Source: Escherichia phage EcM-vB1. Taken from it: DNA of 64,000 nt. Within the stretch, counting starts at the first letter, position 1. Each line of letters begins with the position of its first letter. This document shows, in pieces, positions 50,346 through 51,431 of this stretch. Both the position numbers and the translations under genes were made by a program. The stretch lies in the sequence record PV574017.1. One strand, 5' to 3'. The notes below the pieces were generated by a model. The model did no database searches. It was given only the letters and a program-made list of their open reading frames with translations, and was not told the origin of the DNA.

Positions 50346-51431
50346 TTACCTCTCTGCTAGTTTTGCTTCTAGAACTTCAATACGCTTCAGAAGGTCTTGA
50401 ACAACCTGCATAGTATCAAGGAGCATAGGAGCTGAGTCTAGCTCTTTCTGTTCTTGCTCTACACCATCATTGTCGTGGAACCTACGAGTCTTAACATAAA
50501 GAGGTTCTACCTTTTCTGCTTGCTGTGCAATAATACCACGACGAGTTCTTCCTTGCTCATCATTGTTATACACAAATGATTTGAAATCCAAACCTTTAAT
50601 AGCTTTGATAGCTTTCTCAGGGGAAATATCTTGGATATCATGTTTTAATCTTTCATCTGACACGGGATTCAGAGCAAGAGTGTATGTTCCAGTAGAGCCG
50701 GGTTGCCAAGTATAATATAAAATCTCATTCCTGTTTGGTCGAAGTGTTAGACGGCAACCGTATTTGTTGTCTTCATCACCTGCAACGTGCCAGCAAGAAT
50801 CGGCAAAAGTTCCGGCGTCGTTGTGAATCATGCCAACATGAGTGGTGGTCTTGTATCCCCCACTAGATGATTGAGAAGCACTTAGTATGGAATTGAAGGA
50901 GAAGTTAGACCCTAGCCCTTGGTTGTCCATGGAGAATGTTCCTTTCCTAGCTCCTGTTTCACTCCAAGACATCAAAGTGCCAAATCTAGAAACATACCTA
51001 TCAGAATTCAGTGTACCAGAATCGTCGAAAGCTAACTGCTTGGTAACTCCTTTAGTTTTATTGTAGACGTCAATGATTCCATAGTAAGCTCCGTTGATGT
51101 AGGCATCAGTTTTGAGAGTAGTAGAAGCTTCTACTTCTGAACCGATTTTATACTCAGAGACAACTGACCCACTAGAAACTTTCGTTCCGTTGGAAGGTCG
51201 TGTGGTGTCACTATTAATAACAGACCAAGAAGTATTAGCAGCAACAAATCCACCATGAGCACGAATAGTCCAAACCCCCACAAAGTTTCTCGGTATAATG
51301 TTGTCAGAGATACTATAACGACCATAAACTGGGTTGGACTGGCTTGCGTCGAAGACTAGAGTATTATTACGTCCATCAACTGCACCGGACCCGGAGGTAT
51401 AGTGTCCCCTCCACCAGCCGGATACAAACTG
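50346..51431 (-). CDS. tail fibre, C-terminal part with intramolecular-chaperone (peptidase S74-like) domain
   Basis: SDERLKHDI...IAQQAE...LEAKL terminal pattern; frame stays open upstream of the called GTG to 51431. Confidence 0.65.
   Translation of the reverse strand, partial: QFVSGWWRGHYTSGSGAVDGRNNTLVFDASQSNPVYGRYSISDNIIPRNFVGVWTIRAHGGFVAANTSWSVINSDTTRPSNGTKVSSGSVVSEYKIGSEVEASTTLKTDAYINGAYYGIIDVYNKTKGVTKQLAFDDSGTLNSDRYVSRFGTLMSWSETGARKGTFSMDNQGLGSNFSFNSILSASQSSSGGYKTTTHVGMIHNDAGTFADSCWHVAGDEDNKYGCRLTLRPNRNEILYYTWQPGSTGTYTLALNPVSDERLKHDIQDISPEKAIKAIKGLDFKSFVYNNDEQGRTRRGIIAQQAEKVEPLYVKTRRFHDNDGVEQEQKELDSAPMLLDTMQVVQDLLKRIEVLEAKLAER

What the first reader, a model, noticed from the sequence alone, without database searches (positions are those of the whole stretch)
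51356..51431. Tail fibre gene 50346-52543 (with intramolecular-chaperone domain) split at a G-run
The frame of the downstream ORF stays open well upstream of its called GTG and overlaps the end of the upstream ORF. A GGG at 51390-51392 on the coding strand would restore one roughly 730-aa protein if read as four Gs. The C-terminus carries an S74-like self-cleaving chaperone domain typical of trimeric tail fibres and spikes.
Basis: partly seen in the sequence, partly recalled or inferred. Interest (0 to 1): 0.45.

Follow-up and report, generated by a model that had tools for sequence, protein, structure and literature searches.

The report
Tail fibre gene split by one-base gap
A phage tail-fibre gene appears cut in two because one G is missing from a run of four; the same genome has a dozen similar one-base gaps, even in essential genes, so this is most likely a sequencing error and otherwise an ordinary gene.

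Summary
On the minus strand, ORF 52543..51356 (395 aa) and the frame open over 51431..50346 are the two halves of the 732-aa distal long-tail-fibre gene of a phiEco32-like podophage (Kuravirus). The window has GGG at 51392..51390. Nine independent relatives have GGGG. Adding one G gives a 732-aa protein that differs from MN03 gp021 at 2 residues, with a Peptidase_S74 chaperone domain (aa 629-682, E 6.8e-14) and an SDERLK motif.

The split is probably not biological. Against MN03 and phiEc_1 the window has 19 isolated one-base indels. Eighteen are deletions in the window, mostly in or beside homopolymers. Eleven genes are frameshifted, including the large terminase and the neighbouring proximal tail fibre. 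Two sister records, EcP-vB and EcK-vB, carry different frameshift sets (7 and 14 genes); phiEc_1 has none. The two sisters differ by 27 isolated indels against 93 substitutions, versus 6 against 1306 between two good genomes.

The site has no canonical slippery heptamer, no downstream structure and no two-frame conservation.

One caveat remains: all three sister genomes share this deletion, so it could be a real inherited frameshift (about 0.2).

Verdict: ordinary gene, likely assembly artefact, low interest.

The parts
51390..52543 (-). N-terminal part of the distal long-tail-fibre gene: authentic residues 1-385. The last Gly codon uses the GGG run.
   Evidence: tblastn of MN03 gp021 aa 1-385 gives 99.5% identity in one frame. 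PHROG 6921 positions 1-381 of 738, E 1e-203.
51356..51389 (-). Out-of-frame tail of the upstream ORF (PVQLMDVIIL plus stop). It exists only because of the missing base.
   Evidence: Translation. Relatives read SGAVDGRNNT here.
51390..51392 (-). GGG run on the coding strand (CCC on the plus strand), one G short of the GGGG in relatives. This is the frameshift site.
   Evidence: Alignment. Nine independent phages carry the extra base.
50346..51389 (-). C-terminal part of the same gene: residues 386-732 plus the stop. The frame is open from 51431; the called GTG start at 51281 is internal.
   Evidence: 348 of 348 aa identical to MN03 gp021 aa 385-732. PHROG 6921 positions 416-733. One continuous alignment of aa 203-731 with PDB 8hqz chain d.
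50499..50660 (-). Peptidase_S74 intramolecular chaperone domain (Pfam match, aa 629-682). Ser629 of the SDERLK motif is encoded at 50660..50658. The domain continues to the C-terminus at 50349.
   Evidence: Pfam PF13884, E 6.8e-14. Coordinates and motif.

Best explanation
The region encodes the ordinary distal long-tail-fibre protein of a Kuravirus (phiEco32-like podophage), the homologue of phiEco32 gp15, MN03 gp021 and EP335 gp13. It is a 732-aa chain. By homology, it should trimerise with the help of its C-terminal S74 intramolecular chaperone, which then cleaves itself off at Ser629, and it should sit on the proximal fibre as the receptor-binding branch. The apparent split into 395-aa and 311-aa ORFs comes from one G missing from a GGGG run in the deposited sequence. 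The most likely cause is a homopolymer under-call by the sequencing or assembly pipeline, not a change in the phage's DNA. Shown here: the missing base, the restored ORF, the domain content and the genome-wide excess of one-base deletions. Inferred: that this particular deletion is an error rather than a real mutation, and the fibre's mode of action, which rests on homology.
For: Nine independent phages have GGGG and a single CDS.
2. After repair the protein differs from MN03 gp021 at 2 of 732 residues. The part downstream of the shift is 100% identical, so there is no decay.
3. Against MN03 the window has 19 isolated 1-nt indels. Eighteen are deletions in the window, mostly in or next to homopolymers. 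Where phiEc_1 aligns, it carries the same extra base as MN03 at these sites; three sites fall in poorly aligned stretches.
4. Eleven MN03 genes are frameshifted in the window, including the large terminase, which is essential for packaging. EcP-vB has 7 and EcK-vB 14, in largely different sets that include the scaffold protein, the 1005-aa gp025 and thymidylate synthase. phiEc_1, at similar divergence, has 0.
5. EcP-vB and EcK-vB differ by 27 isolated indels against 93 substitutions. MN03 and phiEc_1 differ by 6 against 1306, and all six lie between genes or at CDS ends.
6. G4/C4 to G3/C3 contractions recur as private events in these assemblies.
7. Neither fragment protein is on record in any other public assembly.
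Against: The deletion is shared by three distinct genomes (window, EcP-vB, EcK-vB), as are five other deletions. Independent random errors would not coincide like this. The explanation therefore needs context-specific systematic errors or a shared reference or consensus step, and I cannot verify either: no reads and no paper were found. The sharing pattern is nested: 6 sites in all three genomes, 3 in window plus EcK-vB only. Real inheritance would also produce that pattern. Tail-fibre genes are also among the genes a laboratory-propagated phage can afford to lose.
Confidence: 0.75

Rival explanations
1. The one-base deletion is real and inherited in this lineage. The common ancestor of the three sister phages lost an intact distal tail-fibre gene by a G4 to G3 frameshift. 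The phage then either lacks functional long-fibre tips on its propagation host or makes only trace amounts of full-length fibre through spontaneous -1 slippage.
For: All three related but distinct genomes share the deletion. The proximal fibre gene carries a second G4 to G3 deletion in window plus EcK-vB, and EcK-vB has a further A-run deletion in the distal gene. That looks like stepwise decay of a dispensable module. There is precedent from my own knowledge: the lambda PaPa laboratory strain carries a frameshift in stf that splits it into orf401 and orf314.
Against: The same assemblies carry equally clean one-base deletions in genes that cannot be lost by a plaque-forming phage, such as the large terminase in the window and the scaffold protein in EcK-vB. 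One-base deletions in these records are therefore demonstrably unreliable. The indel-to-substitution ratio is about 60 times the baseline between two good genomes. There is no secondary decay: the 348 downstream residues are 100% identical to MN03.
Confidence: 0.2
2. The split is functional: either a programmed -1 ribosomal frameshift at CCG GGU, or two independently expressed products (an N-terminal shaft protein and a C-terminal tip with chaperone starting at GTG 51281).
For: A -1 slip of tRNA-Gly from GGU to GGG would give exactly the wild-type sequence IPPGSGAV (direct reading). An SD-like GGAGGGG lies about 10-12 nt upstream of the site. That spacing recalls the dnaX stimulator (my own knowledge).
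Against: U CCG GGU is not a canonical X XXY YYZ heptamer. The 99 nt downstream have no structure beyond shuffles (z +0.58). Nine relatives are simply in frame, so nothing has selected for recoding. The GGAGGGG encodes the Gly-Gly-Gly segment (aa 377-379, GGT GGA GGG) in them as well. The break falls inside a region that is one continuous chain in the solved DT57C fibre (aa 203-731 against 8hqz_d). The S74 chaperone works within its own chain, so a separate N-terminal fragment would lack it. The genuine programmed frameshift of this phage group, in the major capsid protein, does show the canonical GGGAAAG. The GTG at 51281 has no clear Shine-Dalgarno sequence upstream (ACATTATACCGAGAAACTTT).
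Confidence: 0.03

Closest known systems
Distal long-tail-fibre protein of Kuravirus phages (phiEco32 gp15, MN03 gp021 YP_010674079.1, EP335 gp13)
   Same: Same position, between the proximal fibre gene and the holin-endolysin genes. 730 of 732 residues identical to MN03 gp021 after adding one G. Same PHROG 6921. Same C-terminal S74 chaperone. EP335 gp13 was shown to bind O157 and O26 cells and to cleave its chaperone after Ser621 (PMC8217332).
   Different: As written, the window's gene is one base short and reads as two ORFs. All independent relatives have one ORF.
DT57C (T5-like) L-shaped tail-fibre protein, PDB 8hqz chain d
   Same: One continuous alignment of residues 203-731 with chain residues 559-1071, E 1.2e-102. 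It spans the frameshift site and includes the C-terminal chaperone region. phiEco32 gp14 and gp15 are reported to form a branched fibre like DT57C LtfA and LtfB (PMC8217332, citing PMC4728585).
   Different: The phage type differs (siphovirus against podovirus), the N-terminal attachment region differs, and identity in the tip region is lower.
Endosialidase-type intramolecular chaperone (Peptidase_S74, for example phage K1F endoNF)
   Same: Pfam PF13884 match above the cut-off and a Ser-x4-Lys motif, SDERLK.
   Different: Only the chaperone domain is shared. The passenger here is a fibre with a T4 gp12-like tip (reported for the homologue EP335 gp13, PMC8217332), not a sialidase.
Frameshifted side-tail-fibre gene stf of laboratory lambda PaPa (orf401 plus orf314)
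   Same: A one-base frameshift splits a tail-fibre gene into two ORFs of similar sizes. This is the model for the 'real mutation' rival. Source: my own knowledge (Hendrix and Duda 1992), not checked with the tools.
   Different: In lambda the mutation was verified and has a phenotype. Here it is unverified and sits in an assembly with many other one-base deletions.

Membership tests
Peptidase_S74 / intramolecular-chaperone tail fibres | Match to Pfam PF13884 above the gathering score | tested here: met
   52.3 bits against a cut-off of 22, E 6.8e-14, residues 629-682 of the repaired protein.
Peptidase_S74 / intramolecular-chaperone tail fibres | Conserved catalytic Ser and Lys (S-D-x-R-x-K) at the start of the domain | tested here: met
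   SDERLK with Ser629 and Lys634. The role of these residues comes from established knowledge of endoNF.
Peptidase_S74 / intramolecular-chaperone tail fibres | Chaperone and the passenger it folds are in one polypeptide | tested here: inconclusive
   Not met for residues 1-385 in the sequence as written. Met after adding the one G that all independent relatives have.
Peptidase_S74 / intramolecular-chaperone tail fibres | Autoproteolytic release of the C-terminal domain | not testable with these tools
   Shown for the homologue EP335 gp13, cleaved after Ser621 (PMC8217332).
Kuravirus distal long tail fibre (phiEco32 gp15 family, PHROG 6921) | Full-length sequence homology | tested here: met
   The two halves cover PHROG 6921 positions 1-381 and 416-733. 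730 of 732 residues identical to MN03 gp021 after repair.
Kuravirus distal long tail fibre (phiEco32 gp15 family, PHROG 6921) | Conserved gene order: proximal fibre, distal fibre, holin, endolysin, tail protein | tested here: met
   Window ORFs against the annotations of MN03, phiEc_1, EK5 and phiEco32.
Kuravirus distal long tail fibre (phiEco32 gp15 family, PHROG 6921) | Single uninterrupted ORF of about 720-732 codons | tested here: not met
   The window has two ORFs because of the missing G. Relatives have 2169-2199 nt CDSs.
Programmed -1 ribosomal frameshift site | Canonical slippery heptamer X XXY YYZ in the zero frame | tested here: not met
   The site reads U CCG GGU. The phage's true frameshift site, in the major capsid protein, reads G GGA AAG.
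Programmed -1 ribosomal frameshift site | Downstream stimulatory RNA structure | tested here: not met
   Minimum free energy -16.9 kcal/mol against a shuffle mean of -18.6, z +0.58.
Programmed -1 ribosomal frameshift site | Two-frame arrangement conserved in relatives | tested here: not met
   Nine independent relatives are in frame.
Homopolymer indel artefact of sequencing or assembly | Length change of a homopolymer relative to all independent relatives | tested here: met
   G4 to G3.
Homopolymer indel artefact of sequencing or assembly | The same assembly carries similar indels in essential genes, and an indel excess over substitutions | tested here: met
   The large terminase and 10 other genes are frameshifted. 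27 indels against 93 substitutions between the two sister records, versus 6 against 1306 between MN03 and phiEc_1.
Homopolymer indel artefact of sequencing or assembly | Raw reads or resequencing show the full-length run | not testable with these tools
   No reads available, and no paper found for the sister records.

The most novel reading that the evidence does not exclude
The deletion is real and heritable. This lineage of kuraviruses would be shedding its branched long tail fibres step by step: the distal gene frameshifted in the ancestor of all three genomes, the proximal gene in a sub-lineage, and a second hit in the distal gene of EcK-vB. It would then infect multidrug-resistant E. coli with short fibres only. 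Alternatively, it would keep a trickle of full-length fibre through -1 slippage at CCG GGU, helped by the upstream GGAGGGG.
Probability: 0.15. Interest if true: 0.3.

Novelty: not a real feature. Interest (0 to 1): 0.08.

Why it matters
It matters mainly for annotation. The two ORFs should be annotated as one distal tail-fibre gene, or flagged as a frameshift needing verification. This genome and its two sister GenBank records should be treated as error-rich for indels. Any host-range or receptor-binding inference drawn from 'truncated' fibre genes in them would be unsafe. If the frameshift proved real, it would be a modest example of tail-fibre loss during propagation, a phenomenon already known from lambda PaPa.

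Tried and rejected
- **Identity of the window.** I first assumed the window was EcP-vB itself, because the 2301 nt of the gene are 100% identical. A wider comparison shows a third genome with its own indels and substitution blocks.
- **Literature on the sister records.** Searches for EcP-vB, EcK-vB and their accession numbers found nothing, so the sequencing platform is unknown.
- **Other contigs with this junction.** A scan of IMG/VR viral contigs for the junction, allowing either three or four Gs, found no contig.
- **Other contigs with these fragments.** Exact-protein look-ups of both fragments in public assemblies found nothing.
- **Truncated natural forms.** A homologue search with the N-terminal fragment did not return the near-identical 732-aa proteins. 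It did show that homologues of this half are nearly all 470-690 aa with the S74 domain at the end, and only a few are short, probably fragments.
- **Programmed frameshifting.** Considered and rejected: no heptamer, no downstream structure, no conservation.
- **Independent random errors.** Rejected as the explanation for the site shared by three genomes. With about 150 G4/C4 runs per genome and only a handful of them contracted in any one assembly, a triple coincidence at one run is unlikely. Hence the appeal to systematic errors or a shared pipeline step, and the remaining weight on a real mutation.

Full report
**What is there**

The finding concerns two adjacent minus-strand ORFs: 52543..51356 (395 aa, ATG) and 51281..50346 (311 aa, GTG). 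A three-frame translation shows that the frame of the second ORF is open from 51431. The plus strand reads GACCCGG at 51388-51394, so the coding strand has GGG at 51392..51390. Inserting one G there yields a single 732-codon ORF with no internal stop.

**What the gene is**

The window is a phiEco32-like podophage of the genus Kuravirus. The 2301 nt around the gene match 77 phage records. Fifteen of these cover at least 80% of the query, and two sister records, Escherichia phages EcP-vB (PV591328) and EcK-vB (PV591327), match at 100%.

In MN03, phiEc_1, EK5 and phiEco32 the same position holds one CDS, 2199 nt in the first three and 2169 nt in phiEco32. It lies between the proximal tail-fibre gene and the holin, endolysin and tail-protein genes. 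The window has the same gene order.

The evidence that the two ORFs are one gene:
- The repaired protein differs from MN03 gp021 at 2 of 732 residues.
- Both fragments hit the same PHROG (6921, tail fibre) on consecutive profile positions, 1-381 and 416-733.
- Pfam finds Peptidase_S74 at residues 629-682 (E 6.8e-14, 52.3 bits against a cut-off of 22), and only a sub-threshold Collar match.
- The S74 domain begins with SDERLK, with Ser629.
- Against solved structures, residues 203-731 align in one stretch with the DT57C L-shaped tail-fibre chain 8hqz_d (E 1.2e-102). The break at residue 385 therefore lies inside a continuous chain.

From the literature:
- The homologue EP335 gp13 binds O157 and O26 cells and cleaves its chaperone after Ser621.
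- phiEco32 gp14 and gp15 are thought to form a branched fibre like DT57C LtfA and LtfB (PMC8217332).
- In kuraviruses the two proteins are the proximal and distal parts of the long tail fibre (PMC9965538).

**Where the frame breaks**

A nucleotide alignment places a single gap in the window at the G run. The window, EcP-vB and EcK-vB read CCTCC-GGGTCC. MN03, phiEc_1, EK5 and Ec3-ASingh read CCTCCGGGGTCC. A 120-nt query across the site finds 12 records. Only the two sister records span 120 nt. The other ten records, representing nine distinct phages, span 121 nt.

**Real or artefact**

I compared the whole window with MN03.
- There are 19 isolated one-base indels. Eighteen are deletions in the window, and most lie in or next to homopolymers (T5 to T4, G5 to G4, A6 to A5, T7 to T6, C4 to C3).
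- Where phiEc_1 (a different laboratory) aligns, it carries the same extra base as MN03 at these sites; three sites fall in poorly aligned stretches.
- Thirteen of the 19 fall inside MN03 CDSs.
- tblastn shows that each affected gene continues in another frame at 97-100% identity. These include the large terminase (aa 1-389 and 389-513), the proximal tail fibre, a 562-aa amidotransferase-like protein, gp087 and gp040.

A systematic scan with all MN03 proteins counts the frameshifted genes in each genome:

| Genome | Frameshifted genes |
|---|---|
| Window | 11 |
| EcP-vB | 7 |
| EcK-vB | 14 |
| phiEc_1 | 0 |

The sets differ between genomes. Only the window has a broken terminase. Only EcK-vB has a broken scaffold gene. 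EcP-vB and EcK-vB break gp025 and thymidylate synthase at different places.

A baseline comparison between MN03 and phiEc_1 shows 1306 substitutions and 6 isolated one-base indels. All six lie between genes or at the extreme ends of CDSs. EcP-vB against EcK-vB shows 93 substitutions and 27 isolated one-base indels. Over window 1-22900 the window and EcK-vB differ by about nine indel events and essentially no substitutions.

A plaque-forming phage cannot carry a frameshifted terminase, so many of these deletions must be errors of sequencing or assembly. G4/C4 contractions like the one in the tail-fibre gene recur among them.

**The caveat**

The window is not EcP-vB. It is a third close relative, and all three share the GGG. 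They also share five other deletions, at 10208, 11323, 17597, 31100 and 55690. The window and EcK-vB share three more (4891, 45606 and 53682) that EcP-vB lacks.

Independent random errors would not coincide this way. MN03 has about 150 G4/C4 runs, and only a handful of them are contracted in any one assembly. The shared deletions therefore need one of three causes: context-specific systematic errors, a shared reference or consensus step, or real inheritance.

A nested pattern of frameshifts in both fibre genes is also what stepwise loss of a dispensable fibre would look like. I could not find reads or a paper for these records. Neither fragment protein occurs in any other public assembly. I therefore keep about 0.2 on a real, inherited frameshift.

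**Programmed recoding**

A -1 slip at CCG GGU would restore exactly the wild-type sequence, but nothing else supports programmed recoding:
- The heptamer U CCG GGU is not canonical.
- The 99 nt downstream fold no better than shuffles (z +0.58).
- All independent relatives are in frame.

As a control, the true programmed frameshift of this phage group is present in the window. The major capsid gene (57304..56249) carries GGGAAAG at 56264..56258, and its -1 frame stays open for 178 codons encoding an Ig-like extension. This is as described for YF01 and its relatives (PMC9965538).

**Verdict**

The gene is an ordinary, already known Kuravirus distal tail fibre with an S74 chaperone. The split is most likely an assembly artefact (0.75), less likely a real frameshift mutation (0.2), and very unlikely a functional recoding or two-product arrangement (0.03). 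Interest is low. The practical value is a warning about the indel quality of this genome and its sister records.

Noticed in passing
window 52584-54859 (-), site 53680-53682: The neighbouring proximal long-tail-fibre gene (homologue of MN03 gp020 and phiEco32 gp14, 852 aa) is also split, into ORFs 54859..53594 and 53684..52584, by the same kind of event. The window and EcK-vB have CCC where MN03, phiEc_1, EcP-vB and Ec3-ASingh have CCCC. The C-terminal half carries Pfam PF25670 (Phage_tail_C_2).
   Followed up: yes
window 60976-62513 (-), site 61348-61349: The large terminase subunit is frameshifted (aa 1-389 and 389-513 in different frames). The window has TT where MN03, phiEc_1, EcP-vB and EcK-vB have TTT. 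This deletion is private to the window and lies in an essential gene, so it is almost certainly an error.
   Followed up: yes
window-wide: about 158, 1585, 4891, 10208, 11323, 31100; the shifts in the HNH-endonuclease and GGCT homologues were not mapped to window coordinates: Further one-base deletions frameshift the homologues of MN03 gp108, gp104, gp094, gp090 (amidotransferase-like), gp087, gp040, the HNH endonuclease and gp084 (gamma-glutamyl cyclotransferase). In total 11 genes are broken in the window, 7 in EcP-vB, 14 in EcK-vB and 0 in phiEc_1.
   Followed up: yes
window 55722-57304 (-), slippery site 56258-56264: This is the genuine, already described programmed -1 frameshift of kuraviruses. 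The major capsid gene ends with GGGAAAG four codons before its stop, and the -1 frame stays open for 178 codons encoding an Ig-like extension.
   Followed up: partly
window 32942-33454 (+): A 170-aa Dam-family DNA N6-adenine methyltransferase ORF (Pfam PF05869, E 1.4e-48) sits in a stretch of about 700 nt with no counterpart in MN03, between the exonuclease and HNH-endonuclease regions. If the DNA was read on a platform sensitive to base modification, phage-encoded methylation could contribute to systematic base-calling errors. That link is speculative.
   Followed up: partly
window 32460-35460, 41990-42750, 46610-48280: Substitutions between the window and its sister genomes cluster in blocks, and the rest of the genome is nearly identical. 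This is the mosaic pattern expected from recombination among co-circulating kuraviruses.
   Followed up: no
L006 (EcK-vB) locus position about 5086, equivalent to window 50515: EcK-vB has a second one-base deletion (AAAA to AAA) inside the S74 chaperone region of the same tail-fibre gene. Its record annotates the pieces as 'outer membrane protein'.
   Followed up: partly
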